This document shows, piece after piece, positions 1-11,928 of a stretch of DNA of 17,675 nucleotides. Origin of the DNA: a virus. The first letter of the stretch is position 1, and every line of letters starts with the position of its first letter. The DNA lies in the UHGV virus genome UHGV-0262902. The stretch is one strand, 5' to 3'. The translations under genes and the position numbers were made by a program. Below the pieces are notes generated by a model. It searched no databases and was not told where the DNA came from. It saw nothing but the letters and a program-made list of their open reading frames with translations.

Positions 1-3
1 TCC

Positions 4-136
4 AATAACATTGATGGAGATCACTGAATAACAAAATGAGTCAAAAGTGATCTCCATCGATGTTATTCAGCGATCTGTTCAAATGTTATTACCCGATCTC
101 GATGGAAGTTATTGAGTGATCTCCTTTCATGAAAAT
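4..136. repeat. Iteron-like array: 22-bp inverted repeat (4-25 vs 46-67, one mismatch) followed by 23-bp direct repeats with phased GATC sites
   Basis: Read directly: GATC at 19-22, 49-52, 72-75, 95-98 and 118-121, the last four exactly 23 bp apart; TGTTATT at 61-67 and 84-90, AGTTATT at 107-113; approximate unit agNGATCtcN6TGTTATT. No ORF spans it (stops in all + frames by position 30). Confidence 0.6.
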
Positions 137-217
137 ACGCAGGCGGCACGCCGGTCAGTGAGGGTGAATCACCTGACACTGCACCGGCGTCCACCGCCCG
201 ACTTTTCAGAGGTAGTC

Positions 218-5544: not shown

Positions 5545-6067
5545 TTCGCGCCTGCTGCCGACCGGCTCATCACCGCTTGAAGTCGCCGCCGCAAAAGCCT
5601 GTGCGGAAATTGAAAAAACGCCGGCCAGTATTCGTGAGCTGTGGAACCCGGACACCTGCCCGGCAAATCTGCTGCCGTGGCTGGCGTGGGCGTTTTCGGT
5701 CGACAGGTGGGATGAAAAGTGGCCGGAAGCGACAAAACGCGCCGTTATCCGCGATGCCTATTTCATCCACTGTCATAAAGGCACTATAGGCGCAATCCGG
5801 CGTGTGGTGGAGCCGCTCGGCTATCTCATCAACGTGACGGAGTGGTGGGAAAACAGTGACCCGCCCGGCACCTTCCGGCTTGATATTGGTGTACTGGAAA
5901 GCGGTATCACAGAGGCAATGTATCAGGAAATGGAACGGCTGATTGCCGATGCCAAACCTGCAAGCCGTCACCTTATTGGTCTGAACATTACCCGGGACAT
6001 TCCCGGCTACCTGTTCGCCGGTGGTGTGGCTTACGACGGCGATGTAATTACGGTTTACCCCGGATAA
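5537..6067 (+). CDS. I: Baseplate protein gpI (176 aa)
   Basis: Length and position match P2 gpI, directly upstream of tail-fibre gene H. Confidence 0.85.
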   Translation: MSDSRLLPTGSSPLEVAAAKACAEIEKTPASIRELWNPDTCPANLLPWLAWAFSVDRWDEKWPEATKRAVIRDAYFIHCHKGTIGAIRRVVEPLGYLINVTEWWENSDPPGTFRLDIGVLESGITEAMYQEMERLIADAKPASRHLIGLNITRDIPGYLFAGGVAYDGDVITVYPG

Positions 6068-6077
6068 GTGAGGAAGA

Positions 6078-8075
6078 ATGAGCACAAAATTCAGAACCGT
6101 TATCACCACTGCCGGTGCAGCAAAGCTGGCAGCGGCAACCGCGCCGGGAGGGCGGAAGGTCAACATTACCACGATGGCCGTCGGGGATGGAGGTGGTAAA
6201 TTGCCTGTCCCGGATGCCGGACAGACCGGGCTTATCCATGAAGTCTGGCGACATGCGCTGAACAAAATCAGCCAGGACAAACGAAACAGTAATTATATTA
6301 TCGCAGAGCTGGTTATTCCGCCGGAGGTGGGCGGTTTCTGGATGCGTGAGCTTGGCCTGTACGATGATGCGGGAACATTAATTGCCGTGGCGAACATGGC
6401 CGAAAGTTATAAGCCAGCTCTTGCCGAAGGCTCAGGGCGTTCGCAGACCTGTCGCATGGTCATCATCGTCAGCAGTGTGGCCTCAGTGGCGCTGACCATT
6501 GACACCACAGCGGTGATGGCGACGCAGGATTACGTTGATGACAAAATTGCAGAGCATGGACAGTCACGACGTCACCCGGACGCCTCGCTGACCGCAAAAG
6601 GTTTTACTCAGTTAAGCAATGCGACCAACAGCACGTCTGAAACACTGGCCGCAACGCCGAAAGCGGTAAAGGCCGCGTATGATCTTGCTAACGGGAAATA
6701 CACTGCGCAGGATGCCACCACAGCGCGAAAAGGCCTTGTCCAGCTCAGTAGCGCCACCAACAGCACGTCTGAAACGCTCGCCGCAACACCAAAAGCGGTA
6801 AAGGCAGCATATGACCTTGCTAATGGGAAATACACTGCACAGGACGCCACCACAGCGCGAAAAGGTCTTGTCCAGCTCAGTAGCGCCACCAACAGCGATT
6901 CTGAAACGCTTGCGGCAACGCCAAAGGCGGTTAAGACAGCGTATGACCTTGCTAACGGAAAATACACTGCACAGGACGCCACCACGGCGCGGAAAGGTCT
7001 TGTTCAGCTCAATAGTGCCATCAACAGCGATTCTGAAACGCTGGCTGCAACACCAAAAGCGGTGAAGTCTGCCTATGACAATGCTGAAAAACGTCTTCAG
7101 AAAGATCAAAATGGCGCGGATATTCCTGATAAAAGATTATTCCTGCGCAATATTGGAGCAACAAATTCAACAACCATGTCTTTTAGTGGTGGTACAGGAT
7201 GGTTCAGGCTGGCAACTGTAACCATGCCACAGGCCAGTTCCGTGGTTTACATAAGTCTGATTGGTGGTGCTGGATATAATGTTAACTCCCCTATGCAGGC
7301 TGGTATATCTGAACTTGTTCTTCGTGCGGGAAATGGAAATCCAAAAGGTCTTACTGGTGCGTTATGGCGACGGACATCGGTTGGATTTACTAATTTTGCA
7401 TGGGTGAATACATCCGGTGATACCTATGATGTTTATGTTGAAATAGGTAATTACGCCACAGGTGTTAATATTCAGTGGGATTATACCAGTAACGCCAGCG
7501 TAACGATTCATACATCACCAACTTATACAGCGAATAAACCAACAGGTCTTACAGATGGAACTGTATATGTAATTTACAGTTCGCACATTAAACCGACTGC
7601 TGCTGATGTTGGGGCGTTGTCATTATCTGGAGGTCAATTGAATGGTGCACTGGGCATCGGAACATCCAGTGTTCTTGGCGGTAACTCAATTGTTTTGGGT
7701 GATAATGACACGGGCTTTAAACAAAATGGTGACGGTAATCTGGATGTTTATGCTAATAACGTTCATGTTATGCGCTTTGTCTCCGGTAGCATTCAAAGTA
7801 ATAAAACCATAAATATTACGGGTCGTGTTAATCCCACAGATTACGGTAACTTTGATTCCCGCTATGTCCGGGATATCCGGCTTGGTGGTGCTGCCACATA
7901 CAAACCTGCGAACAATGGCATGACATGGACACATCAGGCACCGTCCGGGTGTGTATATTCCGGCATTATTATTCAGGATACCGGCTCAAACTCTGCCGAT
8001 AACATTGGTGGCGTATATTACAGACCGGTGCAGAAATACATTAACGGGACATGGTATAACGTGGCACAGGTATAA
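6078..8075 (+). CDS. H: Tail fibre protein gpH (665 aa) with internal tandem repeats and an AT-richer distal domain
   Basis: GGAAG before ATG 6078; conserved-looking N-terminus; four 44-aa repeats in the shaft; the region from about 7100 on is visibly lower in GC, as expected for a swapped receptor-binding module. Confidence 0.85.
   Translation: MSTKFRTVITTAGAAKLAAATAPGGRKVNITTMAVGDGGGKLPVPDAGQTGLIHEVWRHALNKISQDKRNSNYIIAELVIPPEVGGFWMRELGLYDDAGTLIAVANMAESYKPALAEGSGRSQTCRMVIIVSSVASVALTIDTTAVMATQDYVDDKIAEHGQSRRHPDASLTAKGFTQLSNATNSTSETLAATPKAVKAAYDLANGKYTAQDATTARKGLVQLSSATNSTSETLAATPKAVKAAYDLANGKYTAQDATTARKGLVQLSSATNSDSETLAATPKAVKTAYDLANGKYTAQDATTARKGLVQLNSAINSDSETLAATPKAVKSAYDNAEKRLQKDQNGADIPDKRLFLRNIGATNSTTMSFSGGTGWFRLATVTMPQASSVVYISLIGGAGYNVNSPMQAGISELVLRAGNGNPKGLTGALWRRTSVGFTNFAWVNTSGDTYDVYVEIGNYATGVNIQWDYTSNASVTIHTSPTYTANKPTGLTDGTVYVIYSSHIKPTAADVGALSLSGGQLNGALGIGTSSVLGGNSIVLGDNDTGFKQNGDGNLDVYANNVHVMRFVSGSIQSNKTINITGRVNPTDYGNFDSRYVRDIRLGGAATYKPANNGMTWTHQAPSGCVYSGIIIQDTGSNSADNIGGVYYRPVQKYINGTWYNVAQV
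6597..7095 (+). repeat. Four tandem in-frame 132-bp (44-aa) repeats inside H
   Basis: Repeat anchors AAAGG at 6597, 6729, 6861 and 6993, each exactly 132 bp apart; peptide unit approx KGLVQLSSATNSTSETLAATPKAVKAAYDLANGKYTAQDATTAR; the fourth copy degenerates after ...AYDNAEKR. Confidence 0.85.
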
Positions 8076-8078
8076 TTT

Positions 8079-8606
8079 ATGCAGCATTTAAAAAATATTA
8101 CGGTGGGTAATCCAAAAACGGTTGAACAATATCAATTGACAAAGGGCTTTGATGTTGTCTGGTTTTTTACAGAAGATGGTAAGAACTGGTACGAAGAACA
8201 AAAGTATTTTGCTGATGACACGATAAAAATAGCGTACGACAAAGATAATATCATCCGCTATGTGGAAAAGGATGTGACAGCTATCAGACCGGATGGATTA
8301 AGTGTGGTTGAAGTGGCGGATATTACTGCTAACCGACGGGCGGATATTTCAGGGGGCTGGATGTTTAAGGACGGCAAAGTGATTAAACGCATTTATACGG
8401 CAGAGGAATTACAGCAGCAGGCAGAAATTCGGAAAGCCAGACTTCTTGCAGATGCTGAATCCGTGATTTTGCCGCTGGAGCGCGCGGTCAGACTGAACAT
8501 GGCAACAGAGGAGGAGCGCACACGGCTGGAGGCTTGGGAACGCTACAGCGTTCTGGTCAGTCGTGTGGATCCTGCAAATCCTGAATGGCCGGAAATGCCG
8601 CAATAA
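8079..8606 (+). CDS. G: Tail fibre assembly chaperone gpG (175 aa)
   Basis: Immediately downstream of H (4-nt gap); length matches P2 gpG; AT-rich like the distal part of H. Confidence 0.8.
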
Positions 8607-8859
8607 GTTGTATGAACTCTGGTGTGAGCTTACATATCTATGGCACAGAGTAAAGCCTAATCTGACAGTCCGCTCTGTGCCAAAAGCGGGCGTTGATCAC
8701 ATGGGCTATGCTAACCCATTATAACAGTGTAACAGAGCTACCCACGATTACTCCCGGCCTCTAAAGTTTGCTACATAATAAAGAATCATTCCCTTTAATC
8801 TGATCTTAGCGGTATAGTATCTGGTGACCAGTAAGACAATCACCGACACTACAATCATG

Positions 8860-8887
8860 TTGATTTGCATTGTGTTTAGTCTAAAAT
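8860..8887 (+). promoter_or_regulatory. Candidate sigma70 promoter for the cargo operon
   Basis: TTGATT at 8860-8865, 16-nt spacer, TAAAAT at 8882-8887, about 50 bp upstream of the cargo gene start. Hexamer match only; other AT-rich matches exist nearby. Confidence 0.3.
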
Positions 8888-8936
8888 TGTGGTGCGAAAA
8901 GACCAATGAAAGTTATTGATAATAAGGAGGAATCAA

Positions 8937-9722
8937 ATGTCAGGAATAAGATGGTTGGATAAAAAAGATTTAATCCTTAAAGGAATAAATGAAGGCACCT
9001 ACCCAGAATCAGTTTACAAGTTCAGAACTATAGATAAAGCCTGTGATATTCTTCAAAAAAAAGAATTTTACTTTTCATCAGCGGAAAATTTTAATGATCC
9101 ATTTGATTGTATGCTGGATGAGGAAAAAGAATACTCTTTATCAGACTTTACTTGTTGGTTATATTCATATCAGAATGGATTAACCAAGAAGGCAAAGCAG
9201 AACTTAATAGATGTGTATAAAGAAAACAGCCAAGCATTTAATGATCTAGTTAAAAATATAAAAACAAAAGCCGTCAATGCCCATGGCATTTTATCGCTAT
9301 CTAAAACTAATGAAAATGTTCTTTTATGGTCTCATTATGCGGAGAACCATACCGGAGTTGCTATAAAACTCAATATTGCTAAGGATCCAGAGTTCTTTAT
9401 AACCCCCCAAAACATAGTATATATGAAGCAATATATTCCATTAAATTATCTTAGAGACCCTAAAAAATCAATACTCGACACACTCTCTACGAAATCAATG
9501 GATTGGAATTATGAAGAGGAGATTAGAGTTTATAAAAGTAATATTGGAGCCTATAAGATTAAGCCAGAGGCAATAACTGATGTTTTTTTTGGTTTGAAAA
9601 CGCTGGAACAGGATATTGCAAAAATCAAAAATATATGTAGTGAAAATGGTCTAAGCCATGTGAAGTTTCATCGGGCTGAAAAAAAATATGGAGAATTTGC
9701 GCTACGTTTTAATCCTATTTGA
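8937..9722 (+). CDS. Cargo protein A: DUF2971-like protein of unknown function (261 aa)
   Basis: Consensus SD AAGGAGG at 8924-8930, 6-nt spacer, ATG 8937. AT-rich codon usage. Motifs YKFR (27-30), FYFSSAENFNDPFDC (44-58) and LLWSHYAENHTGVAIK (129-144) resemble the DUF2971 signature as I remember it; no characterised function is known to me. Confidence 0.7.
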   Translation: MSGIRWLDKKDLILKGINEGTYPESVYKFRTIDKACDILQKKEFYFSSAENFNDPFDCMLDEEKEYSLSDFTCWLYSYQNGLTKKAKQNLIDVYKENSQAFNDLVKNIKTKAVNAHGILSLSKTNENVLLWSHYAENHTGVAIKLNIAKDPEFFITPQNIVYMKQYIPLNYLRDPKKSILDTLSTKSMDWNYEEEIRVYKSNIGAYKIKPEAITDVFFGLKTLEQDIAKIKNICSENGLSHVKFHRAEKKYGEFALRFNPI

Positions 9723-9808
9723 CTTTTCTATTTAGTAGTTAAATGATAGTGCATTACGGGCCAATTAAATTTAATTCTATGGTTGTGTAGACAATAAAAG
9801 GTAACTAG

Positions 9809-10294
9809 ATGAATCAAGATGAGTTAAAAAATTTTTGTGTTGATGTGCGTGAAGCACTTGAGAAGATGACCAAAAAAGATCATTCACGGCTGTCATCCTT
9901 TAGAAATTCGAACTTTCCAGTGGGATGCTGCGGAGATACATCGAAACTGCTTGCTTATTTGCTTTATCAGCAATTCGGGATAGTCTCTGAAGTACTCGCA
10001 GGATATTACTATGAATCTGATCATAAGTCCCCCGCCAGCGGTCTTTCAAACGGTAATTCACATGCTTGGCTTGTCGTGGATGGAATGATTGTTGATTTGA
10101 CTGCAGATCAGTTCAACGACCGGGGATATAACAATCTTCCCGTCATGATTACATCAGACACTAGGTTTCATGACCTCTTTGCCAATCGTAATGCCTCGTT
10201 TCAACCTTCTCAAGGTAATGAAATTATTCTACCTGATATTCTAAAAATGACAGCATCACATGTGCAGCAAAGGCTTAAAGAGCGAGGTTGGTAA
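9809..10294 (+). CDS. Cargo protein B: small protein with transglutaminase/papain-like Cys-His-Asp motif arrangement (161 aa)
   Basis: ATG 9809 after a weak AAGG; AT-rich. Motifs G-C-C-G-D (Cys40/41), S-H-A-W-LVVDG (His85) and VDLTADQ (Asp96/Asp100) appear in the order and spacing typical of transglutaminase-like cysteine peptidase cores. Assignment is motif-based only. Confidence 0.6.
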   Translation: MNQDELKNFCVDVREALEKMTKKDHSRLSSFRNSNFPVGCCGDTSKLLAYLLYQQFGIVSEVLAGYYYESDHKSPASGLSNGNSHAWLVVDGMIVDLTADQFNDRGYNNLPVMITSDTRFHDLFANRNASFQPSQGNEIILPDILKMTASHVQQRLKERGW

Positions 10295-10613
10295 TGCGGG
10301 TGCAGCAGAATCTAAAGCTGATACTTAAAATTATATAGGAAGAGCATAAACTTATCCTAAATCTGGCTGTAATAGATCCTTTCATATATCGGCCAGATTA
10401 ATATGAAGTAATCCAAATTAGTGTCTGAAAATATAATCAGCTCCATAACAATAGATTTATCGCTTAAAAATAACGTCAACATGAGGGTAGAAAACATCCC
10501 TAAAGATAAGTCTGGTCTAACCTTTGCTCCTCGCTCAAAGCAGACTGTCAGAATTGATAGCGTTTGGGCTATGTAAATTGTCAGTCGGAAAATGAGTGAG
10601 TACAAATCAGGAC

Positions 10614-10641
10614 AGGCGGGCGAATTGCCCGCCTTTTCTTT
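10614..10641 (+). terminator. Rho-independent terminator closing the cargo region, upstream of FI
   Basis: Stem GGCGGGC (10615-10621), loop GAATT, stem GCCCGCC (10627-10633), then TTTTCTTT. The reverse strand lacks a T-run, so it is oriented for the + strand. Confidence 0.7.
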
Positions 10642-10737
10642 ATCTGTTGTTTCATCCACTGACCAGTCAGGTCAAATAGCGTCTCATGCTCTGCACAACA
10701 GAAAATAGTTGCACCCATTAACCACGGAGTTAAACGG

Positions 10738-11928
10738 ATGAGTGACTATCATCACGGCGTGCAGGTTCTGGAAATTAACGACGGCACCCGTGTCATTTCC
10801 ACCGTATCCACTGCCATTGTCGGCATGGTCTGCACGGCCAGCGATGCGGATGCGGAAACCTTCCCCCTCAATAAACCTGTGCTGATTACCAATGTGCAGA
10901 GCGCAATTGCAAAGGCCGGTAAAAAAGGCACGCTGGCGGCATCGTTGCAGGCCATCGCCGACCAGTCAAAACCGGTCACCGTTGTCGTGCGTGTGGAAGA
11001 CGGCACCGGCGACGATGAAGAAACGAAACTCGCGCAGACCGTGTCCAATATCATCGGCACCACCGACGAAAACGGCCAGTACACCGGACTGAAAGCCCTG
11101 CTGGCGGCGGAGTCGGTAACCGGTGTTAAACCGCGTATTCTCGGAGTGCCGGGACTGGATACCAAAGAGGTGGCTGTTGCACTGGCATCAGTCTGTCAGA
11201 AGCTGCGCGCTTTCGGGTATATCAGCGCATGGGGCTGTAAGACCATTTCCGAGGTGAAAGCCTACCGCCAGAATTTCAGCCAGCGTGAGCTGATGGTCAT
11301 CTGGCCGGATTTCCTCGCATGGGATACGGTCACCAGTACCACCGCCACCGCGTATGCCACCGCCCGTGCGCTGGGTCTGCGTGCCAAAATCGACCAGGAG
11401 CAGGGCTGGCATAAAACGCTGTCCAACGTCGGGGTGAACGGTGTTACCGGCATCAGCGCATCTGTATTCTGGGATTTGCAGGAGTCCGGCACCGATGCTG
11501 ACCTGCTTAACGAGTCAGGCGTCACAACACTGATTCGCCGTGACGGTTTCCGCTTCTGGGGTAACCGTACCTGCTCTGATGACCCGCTGTTCCTCTTTGA
11601 AAACTACACCCGCACCGCACAGGTACTGGCCGACACGATGGCGGAGGCGCACATGTGGGCGGTGGACAAGCCCATCACCGCAACGCTGATTCGTGACATC
11701 GTTGACGGCATCAATGCCAAATTCCGTGAGCTGAAAACAAACGGCTATATCGTGGATGCGACCTGCTGGTTTAGCGAAGAATCCAACGATGCGGAAACCC
11801 TCAAGGCCGGAAAACTGTATATCGACTACGACTATACCCCGGTGCCTCCTCTTGAAAACCTGACCCTGCGCCAGCGTATCACCGATAAATACCTGGCAAA
11901 TCTGGTCACCTCGGTTAACAGCAATTAA
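10738..11928 (+). CDS. FI: Tail sheath protein gpFI (396 aa)
   Basis: GGAG at 10726-10729 before ATG 10738; length matches P2 FI; followed by the tail tube gene. Confidence 0.9.
   Translation: MSDYHHGVQVLEINDGTRVISTVSTAIVGMVCTASDADAETFPLNKPVLITNVQSAIAKAGKKGTLAASLQAIADQSKPVTVVVRVEDGTGDDEETKLAQTVSNIIGTTDENGQYTGLKALLAAESVTGVKPRILGVPGLDTKEVAVALASVCQKLRAFGYISAWGCKTISEVKAYRQNFSQRELMVIWPDFLAWDTVTSTTATAYATARALGLRAKIDQEQGWHKTLSNVGVNGVTGISASVFWDLQESGTDADLLNESGVTTLIRRDGFRFWGNRTCSDDPLFLFENYTRTAQVLADTMAEAHMWAVDKPITATLIRDIVDGINAKFRELKTNGYIVDATCWFSEESNDAETLKAGKLYIDYDYTPVPPLENLTLRQRITDKYLANLVTSVNSN

What the first reader, a model, noticed from the sequence alone, without database searches (positions are those of the whole stretch)
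9809..10294. Cargo protein B looks like a minimal transglutaminase/papain-like cysteine peptidase
The order G-C-C-G-D (Cys40/41), then S-H-A-W (His85), then Asp96/Asp100 in VDLTADQ mirrors the Cys-His-Asp core of transglutaminase-like cysteine peptidases, compressed into 161 aa with no other domain. A stand-alone peptidase or deamidase in a prophage cargo slot would fit a toxin or effector role.
Basis: inference. Interest (0 to 1): 0.7.

Follow-up and report, generated by a model that had tools for sequence, protein, structure and literature searches.

The report
Stand-alone transglutaminase-like enzyme, prophage cargo
A small gene carried as optional cargo in a P2-like E. coli prophage encodes a predicted cysteine enzyme of the transglutaminase/papain type, from a large unstudied family that travels on phages, integron cassettes and defence islands, so it is a reasonable but untested candidate weapon in phage-bacterium conflict.

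Summary
ORF 9809-10294 (+) encodes 161 aa with G39-C40-C41-G42-D43, S84-H85-A86-W87 and V95-D96-L-T-A-D100-Q101.

The fold reading is supported:
- The AlphaFold2 model is confident (pLDDT 91). Cys41 sits at a helix N-terminus; His85 and Asp96 sit on the next two strands.
- All three residues (Cys41, His85, Asp96) are kept in 223 of 247 family members; Cys41 in 247/247, so Cys41, not Cys40, is the likely nucleophile.
- No Pfam model reaches threshold, and Foldseek finds nothing significant. This is a divergent family without its own model (about 1,700 clusters at 50% identity, nearly all about 150 aa).
- RefSeq already names it "transglutaminase-like domain-containing protein".

The gene lies in the P2 G/FI cargo slot, downstream of a DUF2971 gene (PADLOC candidate PDC-S31). 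Relatives occur alone as Vibrio integron cassettes and as prophage add-on genes. They also sit next to ApeA, McrBC and RexAB, and as repeated domains in two giant phage polyvalent proteins.

Most likely it is an autonomous cytoplasmic thiol enzyme used in phage-host conflict. Its direction (defence or counter-defence), substrate and chemistry are untested.

The parts
9809..10294 (+). Protein B CDS (161 aa): stand-alone transglutaminase-like Cys-His-Asp protein (RefSeq WP_001537277.1)
9926..9931 (+). Codons for Cys40-Cys41 (TGC TGC). Cys41 is the proposed nucleophile at the N-terminus of helix 41-56
   Evidence: Sequence; C41 in 247/247 and C40 in 221/247 family members; helix start
10061..10063 (+). 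Codon for His85 (proposed general base) on strand 84-90, within the SHAW motif
   Evidence: Sequence; invariant in A1 and A2; 233/247
10094..10111 (+). Codons for the D96-L-T-A-D100-Q101 motif. Asp96 is the proposed third triad residue at the end of strand 93-96. Gln101 is invariant; its role is unknown
   Evidence: Sequence; D96 and Q101 in 237/237 aligned members; secondary structure
8937..9722 (+). Protein A CDS (261 aa from the RefSeq ATG; an upstream TTG at 8916 gives 268 aa). DUF2971 protein that matches the PADLOC candidate single-gene defence family PDC-S31
   Evidence: Pfam DUF2971 E=5e-5; PADLOC PDC-S31 E=2.6e-46; RefSeq annotation
9723..9808 (+). 86-nt A-B spacer. No terminator-like hairpin; one weak promoter-like match (9719-9747). 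Length and sequence are conserved in the Serratia (86 nt) and Pectobacterium (78 nt) cassettes
8696..10516 (.). Variable cargo segment of the P2 G/FI slot (35% GC; flanking genes G, H and FI 46-56%). Phage Wphi carries an unrelated orf44 here
   Evidence: BLASTN against Wphi: homology ends at about 8695 and resumes at about 10517; GC; only 12 of 5,426 complete E. coli genomes hold the cargo, against 1,455 that hold the flanks
10614..10634 (+). Terminator-like GC-rich hairpin with a T-run. It lies downstream of B inside the conserved P2 flank, ahead of the FI start
   Evidence: Consensus scan, 9-bp stem with 7 GC pairs. Function not tested
8079..8606 (+). P2 gpG-like tail fibre assembly gene (left boundary of the slot)
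10738..11928 (+). P2 gpFI-like tail sheath gene (right boundary of the slot)

Best explanation
Protein B is a real, cytoplasmic, single-domain enzyme with a transglutaminase-like (papain-like) fold and a Cys41-His85-Asp96 triad. It belongs to a large family that has no curated model and is spread by mobile elements.

Proposed mechanism (inferred): the Cys41 thiolate, activated by His85 and oriented by Asp96, attacks an amide carbonyl of a protein target. The target could be a peptide bond or a Gln side chain. A thioester intermediate forms and is resolved by water (proteolysis or deamidation) or by an amine (transamidation).

In this P2-like prophage the gene is optional cargo in the G/FI slot. 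I expect it to be expressed in the lysogen, where it would act on an incoming phage's protein or a host protein and so help exclude competing phages. It can work on its own. Here it travels as a conserved two-gene cassette with a DUF2971 (PDC-S31/Aristaios-type) gene that is probably a separate defence gene.

Shown: the ORF, its conservation, the predicted fold, the invariant triad, the absence of a signal peptide or transmembrane segment, and the mobile or defence-rich contexts.
Inferred: catalysis, a protein substrate, expression in the lysogen, and the anti-phage direction.
For: Fold and triad:
- AF2 model has pLDDT 91.1. C41 is at the helix N-terminus; H85 and D96 lie on consecutive strands.
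- Sub-threshold Pfam hits: YunG in 26 of 70 members, Transglut_core 11, DUF2026 5, Transglut_core3 3, Tox-PLDMTX 2.
- Triad kept in 223/247, C41 in 247/247.
- No transmembrane segment or signal peptide (maximum Kyte-Doolittle 19-residue window 1.24).

Autonomy:
- Relatives are single-gene integron cassettes bounded by about 125-nt attC-like repeats in Vibrio (L015, L019, L028).
- B-family genes occur without a DUF2971 gene in Klebsiella and Citrobacter prophages; the Klebsiella one stands alone on the opposite strand, the Citrobacter one sits between two small same-strand ORFs of unknown function.
- No neighbour is conserved across 85 loci.
- At least 97% of the top 150 cluster representatives are about 150-aa stand-alone proteins.

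Conflict context:
- P2 G/FI variable slot.
- Adjacent genes are PDC-S31, ApeA with a 50-nt gap, McrBC, RexAB and a reverse transcriptase.
- Immediate neighbours in other genomes hit PADLOC models for TmtA, SoFic, bSEFIR and several PDC candidates.
- 71 IMG/VR viral contigs carry relatives, often beside the small terminase subunit, which I take to be a common site for add-on genes.
- dN/dS is fairly high at 0.53-0.61 while the core stays invariant.
Against: - No Pfam or NCBIfam model passes its threshold (YunG 24 bits against a cutoff of 27; Transglut_core 13.5 against 23).
- Foldseek against the PDB finds nothing significant (best E=0.12).
- No PDB sequence hit.
- Triad geometry could not be measured.
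- B has no PADLOC hit, and I found no paper on the family.
- The defence direction rests only on guilt by association. The same domain occurs in phage polyvalent proteins, which are thought to be offensive.
- Many neighbours in Firmicutes look like housekeeping genes (methyltransferases, GNATs, aminotransferases).
- Promoter-like matches in the cargo are no more frequent than in shuffled sequence.
Confidence: 0.6

Rival explanations
1. B is the second component of a two-gene DUF2971-B system. It would process, activate, restrain or reverse the action of the upstream effector, acting as a modular partner or antitoxin-like enzyme, rather than as an independent gene.
For: - The A-B cassette is conserved as a unit in E. 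coli (P2 prophage), Serratia (island with an integrase and P2 gpA-like (Phage_GPA) replication genes) and Pectobacterium (ICE-like island). A is 71-77% and B 74-76% identical, and the 78-86-nt spacer is similar.
- No terminator was found in the spacer.
- A very divergent DUF2971 (22% identity) also precedes a B relative in Psychromonas.
- In Providencia, B sits 50 nt downstream of ApeA on the same strand.
Against: - B relatives occur without any DUF2971 gene: as single integron cassettes, in Klebsiella and Citrobacter prophages, and next to IS66 and McrBC.
- Only 3 of 85 loci in the neighbour analysis have DUF2971 upstream; Pectobacterium, looked up later, is a further case.
- Six distant phage-borne DUF2971 genes have no B-like gene within 3 kb.
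- PADLOC models PDC-S31 as a single gene, and the lactococcal DUF2971 system Aristaios works alone (PMC11381338).
- A and B differ in GC (0.32 against 0.41).
- In one viral contig A carries frameshifts while B is intact.
Confidence: 0.22
2. B is an offensive, counter-defence or host-takeover effector. The phage would use it to disable a host protein, for example an immunity component, as proposed for domains of polyvalent proteins, rather than to protect the lysogen.
For: - The B-like domain occurs three times in a 3,200-aa polyvalent protein, interleaved with InPase and ART-PolyVal domains (P0096).
- It occurs once just N-terminal of ART-PolyVal in a 1,351-aa protein of a 191-kb viral contig (L161).
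- Polyvalent proteins are proposed to be delivered into the host to counter its defences (PMC5512222).
- Viral neighbours include DNA methyltransferases and ParB-like proteins.
Against: - In this window the gene sits in a P2 cargo slot where, to my knowledge, the known occupant (fun/Z) excludes other phages.
- The close relatives' neighbours are defence genes.
- Integron cassettes and chromosomal islands are host-side locations.
- Only 2 large fusions were seen among several hundred family members.
Confidence: 0.22
3. B acts on a small molecule or does a non-conflict job, for example as an amidase or as an N-acyltransferase like the arylamine N-acetyltransferases. It would be a metabolic or detoxifying accessory gene.
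For: - Neighbours in Firmicutes include GNAT acetyltransferases, methyltransferases and aminotransferases.
- From my general knowledge, integron cassettes often carry detoxifying enzymes.
Against: - Carriage by prophages and polyvalent proteins, and adjacency to defence genes, fit conflict better.
- No metabolic neighbour is conserved.
Confidence: 0.1
4. The motif is a chance pattern in a spurious or decaying ORF.
For: No curated family model passes its threshold.
Against: 1,705 cluster representatives match at E<=1e-3, and the motif is invariant. The structure model is confident. RefSeq annotates the CDS.
Confidence: 0.01

Closest known systems
Atu2299 (PDB 2HLY), Pfam DUF2026
   Different: 13% identity. 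The Pfam score is 12.5 bits against a cutoff of 25. Atu2299 is 205 aa and itself uncharacterised, so the match gives no functional information.
Glutamine deamidases of the papain-like fold: Salmonella SseI (4G29), Pasteurella toxin C3 domain (2EBF), Chryseobacterium/Flavobacterium protein-glutaminase (2ZK9, 3A54, 8Z3I)
   Different: 9-16% identity with no sequence-level homology. Those proteins are secreted or injected virulence factors or extracellular enzymes. B has no export signal and sits in a prophage cargo slot.
Pfam Transglut_core (PF01841) and YunG (PF24585), families of the transglutaminase-like superfamily of Makarova, Aravind & Koonin 1999
   Same: From my memory of the Transglut_core logo, the motifs correspond: G-C-x-x-[ST] at the helix start, HAW on the first strand and D-x-T on the next. 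The sub-threshold HMM alignments cover B 36-88 (Transglut_core) and 78-111 (YunG). RefSeq uses the name 'transglutaminase-like domain-containing protein'.
   Different: Both are below the gathering scores (13.5 against 23 bits; 24 against 27). The family has its own signature, F-P-x-G-C-C-G-D-[TS] ... S-H-A-W ... [IV]-D-[IL]-T-[AG]-D-Q-F, plus an N-terminal helix with a near-invariant Arg14.
[not shown]
   Same: Same kind of locus: a low-GC, swappable insert between conserved P2 genes. A DUF2971 gene is the immediate neighbour. DUF2971 genes are also listed in the other P2 hotspot.
   Different: B itself matches no PADLOC model, and I found no report of it being tested. The Rousset paper deals mainly with another P2 hotspot, the one carrying old and tin.
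Domains of phage and conjugative-element polyvalent proteins (Iyer, Burroughs, Anand, de Souza & Aravind 2017, PMC5512222)
   Same: The B-like domain, with Cys, His and Asp retained, is embedded next to ART-PolyVal and InPase domains in two giant phage proteins.
   Different: B is a solo protein. A term search of that paper for transglutaminase, papain-like and thiol peptidase found nothing.

Membership tests
Transglutaminase-like / papain-like cysteine enzyme superfamily | Nucleophilic Cys at the N-terminus of an alpha-helix | tested here: met
   Helix 41-56 starts at Cys41 in a model with pLDDT 91. C41 is present in 247/247 members.
Transglutaminase-like / papain-like cysteine enzyme superfamily | His and Asp on consecutive beta-strands after the helix, in the order Cys-His-Asp | tested here: met
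   His85 is on strand 84-90 and Asp96 at the end of strand 93-96. Both are invariant in A1 and A2.
Transglutaminase-like / papain-like cysteine enzyme superfamily | Triad side chains within bonding distance in three dimensions | not testable with these tools
   Model coordinates are not exposed. Only secondary structure and pLDDT were returned.
Transglutaminase-like / papain-like cysteine enzyme superfamily | Significant structural similarity to solved members | tested here: inconclusive
   [not shown]
Transglutaminase-like / papain-like cysteine enzyme superfamily | Thiol-dependent hydrolase or transferase activity | not testable with these tools
   Needs biochemistry.
Pfam Transglut_core (PF01841) | Score at or above the gathering threshold (23 bits) | tested here: not met
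   13.5 bits, E=0.087. 11 of 70 relatives hit at E<=0.01; the family's best is E=8.8e-5.
Pfam YunG (PF24585) | Score at or above the gathering threshold (27 bits), covering the domain | tested here: not met
   24 bits, covering only residues 78-111 against profile positions 58-89 of 116. 26 of 70 relatives give weak hits.
Pfam DUF2026 (PF09641) | Score at or above the gathering threshold (25 bits) | tested here: not met
   [not shown]
Known or candidate anti-phage defence systems (PADLOC-DB v2) | Match to a system component HMM | tested here: not met
   Protein B: 0 families at E<=1. Protein A: PDC-S31 at E=2.6e-46.
P2-like prophage variable cargo (G/FI slot) | Lies between the tail fibre assembly gene G and the sheath gene FI; flanks conserved and insert variable among P2-like phages; atypical GC | tested here: met
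   (homology to Wphi ends at about 8695 and resumes at about 10517). GC 0.35 in the insert and 0.46-0.56 in the flanking genes. Cargo present in 12 of 5,426 genomes, flanks in 1,455.
Two-gene operon or toxin-antitoxin-like pair with DUF2971 | Obligate co-occurrence of the two families | tested here: not met
   Co-occurrence in only 3 of 85 B loci in the neighbour analysis, plus Pectobacterium found later. 0 of 6 distant phage DUF2971 loci have a B-like gene. The pair is, however, conserved as a cassette in three enterobacterial genera.

The most novel reading that the evidence does not exclude
The B family (about 1,700 clusters at 50% identity) is a new, widespread class of single-gene conflict effector carried by prophages, integron cassettes and defence islands. 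It would be a minimal Cys-His-Asp protease or deamidase that, on its own, blocks phage infection, or disarms a host defence, by covalently modifying one conserved target protein. Its recurrent placement beside ADP-ribosyltransferase-type domains (ART-PolyVal in polyvalent proteins; DUF2971 here, which PMC11381338 reports as ART-like in fold) would then reflect a functional pairing of the two chemistries.
Probability: 0.3. Interest if true: 0.7.

Novelty: new member of a known kind. Interest (0 to 1): 0.45.

Why it matters
If the gene is active, this would be a compact (about 150 aa), easily tested enzyme family that mobile elements exchange across several bacterial phyla. It is missing from the libraries checked here (Pfam, NCBIfam and PADLOC-DB v2), and I found no paper on it.

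Showing that it protects against phages, or defeats a host defence, would add a protease or deamidase type of single-gene system to the known repertoire. It would also help explain part of the unknown cargo in P2 hotspots and in Vibrio integron cassettes. The fold assignment alone is not new, because RefSeq already gives it that generic name.

Tried and rejected
- Sequence search of the PDB with profiles A1 and A2 gave no meaningful hit.
- Foldseek against the PDB and against BFVD viral models gave nothing significant or informative. The afdb50 library was unavailable.
- NCBIfam and PADLOC gave no hit for B. PHROGs gave only an unannotated family, phrog_26734.
- All-against-all clustering of about 490 neighbour proteins from 85 loci found no conserved partner gene. 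The largest neighbour cluster covers 5 loci, in scattered positions.
- I tested whether DUF2971 is related in sequence to ART-PolyVal, which would link the cassette here to the polyvalent-protein fusions. hhalign gave probability 0.1%, so this is not supported.
- P0167 (1,991 aa) from the representative search was not confirmed as carrying the domain by the A2 HMM.
- Literature searches for the protein accessions, PDC-S31, and transglutaminase-like combined with anti-phage or prophage add-on-gene terms found nothing on this family. Two integron-cassette defence papers do not mention such a protein. The supplement of the 2026 P2/P4 paper is not held.
- The minus-strand ORF 10357-10659 (100 aa, GTG start) is not annotated in RefSeq and overlaps the conserved P2 flank and the hairpin, so I treat it as spurious.
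- The first search for related loci attempt with A2 failed because the alignment was too diverse. It was repeated with A3.

Full report
OBSERVATION.
The window is the late region of a P2-like (Peduovirus) prophage. It holds tail fibre H (6078-8075), tail fibre assembly G (8079-8606), two low-GC cargo ORFs, then sheath FI (10738-11928) and tube FII. ORF 9809-10294 (+) encodes 161 aa. An AAGG ribosome-binding-like site lies 7 nt upstream. There is no hydrophobic segment that could be a signal peptide or membrane helix.

IS IT MORE THAN CHANCE?
Yes.
- The close family has 24 proteins, all from Enterobacterales. Its invariant residues are C10, R14, F36, P37, G39, C40, C41, T44, S84, H85, W87 and D96-L-T-A-D-Q-F102.
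- An exhaustive profile search of 1.84 billion cluster representatives found 1,705 relatives at E<=1e-3 and 255 at E<=1e-10. Nearly all are stand-alone proteins of 140-170 aa.
- In 70 diverse relatives (25-50% identity), P37, C41, H85, W87, D96 and Q101 are invariant.
- In 247 members aligned to the family HMM, C41 is kept in 247/247, D96 and Q101 in 237/237 aligned, H85 in 233/247 and C40 in 221/247. The complete triad is kept in 223/247. All 24 exceptions come from one divergent subgroup (157-189 aa, mostly about 180) that may be misaligned.
- Domain copies inside large fusion proteins keep only the second Cys. Cys41 is therefore the nucleophile candidate and Cys40 is accessory.

FOLD.
AlphaFold2 on the 22-sequence alignment gave a confident model (mean pLDDT 91.1, pTM 0.88). 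Its elements are helices 3-19 and 41-56, strands 61-66, 84-90 and 93-96, helix 99-105, strand 113-115 and helix 143-158. Cys41 opens helix 41-56. His85 lies on the next long strand and Asp96 ends the hairpin partner strand. From established knowledge, this is the hallmark layout of the transglutaminase/papain-like core.

- TglA, LapG, arylamine N-acetyltransferases, RavJ, SpvD, PeiW, Ceg10, Pasteurella toxin C3, factor XIII and TG2

Pfam gives only sub-threshold hits. For B itself these are YunG 24 bits (cutoff 27), Transglut_core 13.5 (cutoff 23) and DUF2026 12.5 (cutoff 25). Across the 70 relatives the weak hits go to YunG (26), Transglut_core (11), DUF2026 (5), Transglut_core3 (3) and Tox-PLDMTX (2).

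Against this, Foldseek finds no significant PDB match (best 2HLY, E=0.12), and profile searches of PDB sequences find nothing. I could not measure triad distances because coordinates are not exposed.

Current RefSeq annotation already names the identical protein, WP_001537277.1, "transglutaminase-like domain-containing protein" in some genomes and "hypothetical protein" in others.

Conclusion: this is a divergent family inside a known superfamily that no curated model covers.

THE LOCUS.
Comparison with phage Wphi shows that P2 homology ends at about 8695 and resumes at about 10517. The swappable insert is therefore about 1.8 kb. Its GC is 0.35, against 0.46-0.56 in the flanking genes G, H and FI. 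Wphi has an unrelated orf44 in that place. The insert is rare: 12 of 5,426 complete E. coli genomes hold it, while the flanks occur in 1,455.

The upstream gene A (8937-9722 by RefSeq) is a DUF2971 protein. It matches the PADLOC candidate single-gene family PDC-S31 at E=2.6e-46. A lactococcal DUF2971 protein, Aristaios, is a validated single-gene abortive-infection system with a reported ADP-ribosyltransferase-like fold (PMC11381338).

No terminator-like hairpin lies in the 86-nt A-B spacer. A strong hairpin at 10614-10634 lies in the conserved flank before FI. Promoter-like matches are no more frequent than in shuffled sequence, so transcription signals remain unproven.

IS B TIED TO A?
Partly. 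In Serratia and Pectobacterium the same A-B cassette occurs in different elements: an island with an integrase and P2 gpA-like (Phage_GPA) replication genes, and an ICE-like island. A is 71-77% and B 74-76% identical, and the spacer is 78-86 nt and alignable. A very divergent DUF2971 (22% identity) also precedes a B relative in a Psychromonas genome.

B nevertheless occurs without A in many places:
- K. aerogenes, next to a reverse transcriptase.
- Pantoea cypripedii, between IS66 and McrBC.
- Pantoea sp., in a prophage remnant that also carries RexAB, about 670 nt downstream of a DUF2806 gene.
- Providencia, 50 nt downstream of ApeA.
- Citrobacter and K. quasipneumoniae prophages, as an add-on gene near the lysis and terminase modules.
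- Vibrio, where relatives are single-gene integron cassettes bounded by about 125-nt attC-like repeats. In L015 the ORF at 5989-6456 lies between repeats at 5845-5973 and 6454-6578.

Other observations point the same way:
- Clustering about 490 neighbour proteins from 85 loci found no conserved partner.
- Six distant phage-borne DUF2971 genes have no B-like gene nearby.
- A and B differ in GC, 0.32 against 0.41.
- In one viral contig A is frameshifted while B is intact.

I conclude that B is an autonomous unit that, in one enterobacterial lineage, travels with a DUF2971 gene.

WHAT SIDE OF THE CONFLICT?
The family spans several bacterial phyla, among them Gammaproteobacteria, Firmicutes, Collinsella (Actinobacteria), Planctomycetes and Desulfobacterota. 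It is present on 71 IMG/VR viral contigs. There the neighbours are most often the small terminase subunit, head protease, DNA methyltransferases and ParB-like proteins.

Immediate neighbours in bacterial genomes include PADLOC hits to PDC-S31, TmtA, SoFic, PDC-S58, ApeA, PDC-S01, bSEFIR, PDC-M18A and DRT. They also include many housekeeping-type enzymes. I could not compute a proper enrichment statistic.

Two giant phage proteins carry the domain. P0096 (3,200 aa) has three copies, interleaved with InPase and ART-PolyVal. A 1,351-aa protein on a 191-kb viral contig has one copy just before ART-PolyVal. These are polyvalent proteins, which are thought to be injected to counter host defences (PMC5512222). 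The domain is therefore clearly a conflict module, but its direction is open.

The pair B-A evolves with dN/dS of 0.53-0.61 for B and 0.27-0.43 for A, around an invariant catalytic core in B. This fits an arms-race gene but does not prove one.

MECHANISM (committed view).
Protein B is a cytoplasmic thiol enzyme. Cys41, activated by His85 and Asp96, forms a thioester with an amide of a protein substrate and resolves it by hydrolysis or aminolysis. The outcome would be cleavage, Gln deamidation or cross-linking. The invariant Arg14, Phe36-Pro37 and Asp100-Gln101-Phe102 probably shape the substrate cleft (inference).

In this prophage it most likely serves the lysogen as an exclusion or defence factor next to a second, independent DUF2971 defence gene. 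My estimates are:
- Enzyme class: about 0.85.
- Autonomous conflict cargo: about 0.7.
- Defence rather than counter-defence: about 0.4, against 0.25.

NOVELTY AND VERDICT.
The fold and triad are of a known kind, and the generic name is already in RefSeq. The family itself has no Pfam, NCBIfam or PADLOC model, and I found no paper on it. I rate it a new member of a known kind and moderately interesting as a cheap, testable candidate for a new single-gene defence or counter-defence enzyme.

Noticed in passing
window 8937-9722 (+): The upstream cargo gene is a DUF2971 protein that matches the PADLOC candidate single-gene defence family PDC-S31 (E=2.6e-46). A lactococcal DUF2971 protein (Aristaios) is a validated abortive-infection gene. 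DUF2971 genes are also listed in the other P2 hotspot in Rousset et al. Table S5.
   Followed up: partly
window 1-141: The first 141 bases are a multi-copy element: 5,097 places in 1,703 E. coli genomes, median 3 per genome, on chromosomes and plasmids. It is identical to the sequence that abuts position 10784 in strain GPEC1042, next to an ISEc12 (IS21-family) istA gene. The prophage in the source genome therefore seems to be cut by an IS on its left side. In the GPEC chicken strains the same IS interrupts the sheath gene FI 47 nt into the CDS, while the cargo stays intact.
   Followed up: partly
window 6624-7079 (+), inside tail fibre gene H: A 132-nt tandem repeat, 3.5 copies at 88% identity, encodes repeated 44-aa units (…ATNSxSETLAATPKAVKAAYDLANGKYTAQDATTARKGLVQL…) in the tail fibre.
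   Followed up: no
L015 5845-6578; L019; L028 (Vibrio genomes): B relatives are single-gene integron cassettes flanked by about 125-nt attC/VCR-like repeats, inside arrays of small same-strand cassettes.
   Followed up: partly
P0096 residues 1457-1544, 1750-1851, 2162-2231; L161 3894-7949 (protein residues 368-443): Two giant phage polyvalent proteins carry the B-like domain next to ART-PolyVal, and in P0096 also next to InPase. Three copies in one protein could mean self-processing peptidases or repeated effectors.
   Followed up: partly
L170 3001-3780 (same IMG/VR contig as L099): In this viral contig the DUF2971 gene reads through two frame changes (three gaps against the window) while B is intact at 98% identity. 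This is either real decay of A or an assembly error.
   Followed up: partly
L052, L121-L123, L133, L143 (L052 is Acinetobacter nematophilus; the others are unassigned IMG/VR viral contigs with the same gene layout): The B-like gene sits on the same strand inside what looks, from ORF sizes and order only, like a head-morphogenesis module, not at a module border. I inferred the roles (large terminase, portal, a protein of about 170-190 aa, then B, a protein of about 335-360 aa, a 124-aa protein and a protein of about 332-360 aa) without assigning families per locus.
   Followed up: no
L086 130-1659 (+): A single 509-aa ORF appears to join a B-like N-terminal part to a family-2 glycosyltransferase domain (Pfam Glycos_transf_2, residues 205-308). 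This is a possible fusion, or an artefact of my crude ORF calling.
   Followed up: no
P0221-P0251 (about 180-aa subgroup): A divergent subgroup keeps Cys41, but His85 or Asp96 do not align. This could be misalignment, an altered triad or inactive relatives.
   Followed up: no
window 9809-10294 compared with L008 and L092 orthologs: dN/dS of B is 0.53-0.61, higher than for A (0.27-0.43), and dS is lower for B than for A. This hints at different histories or selection regimes for the two cassette genes.
   Followed up: partly
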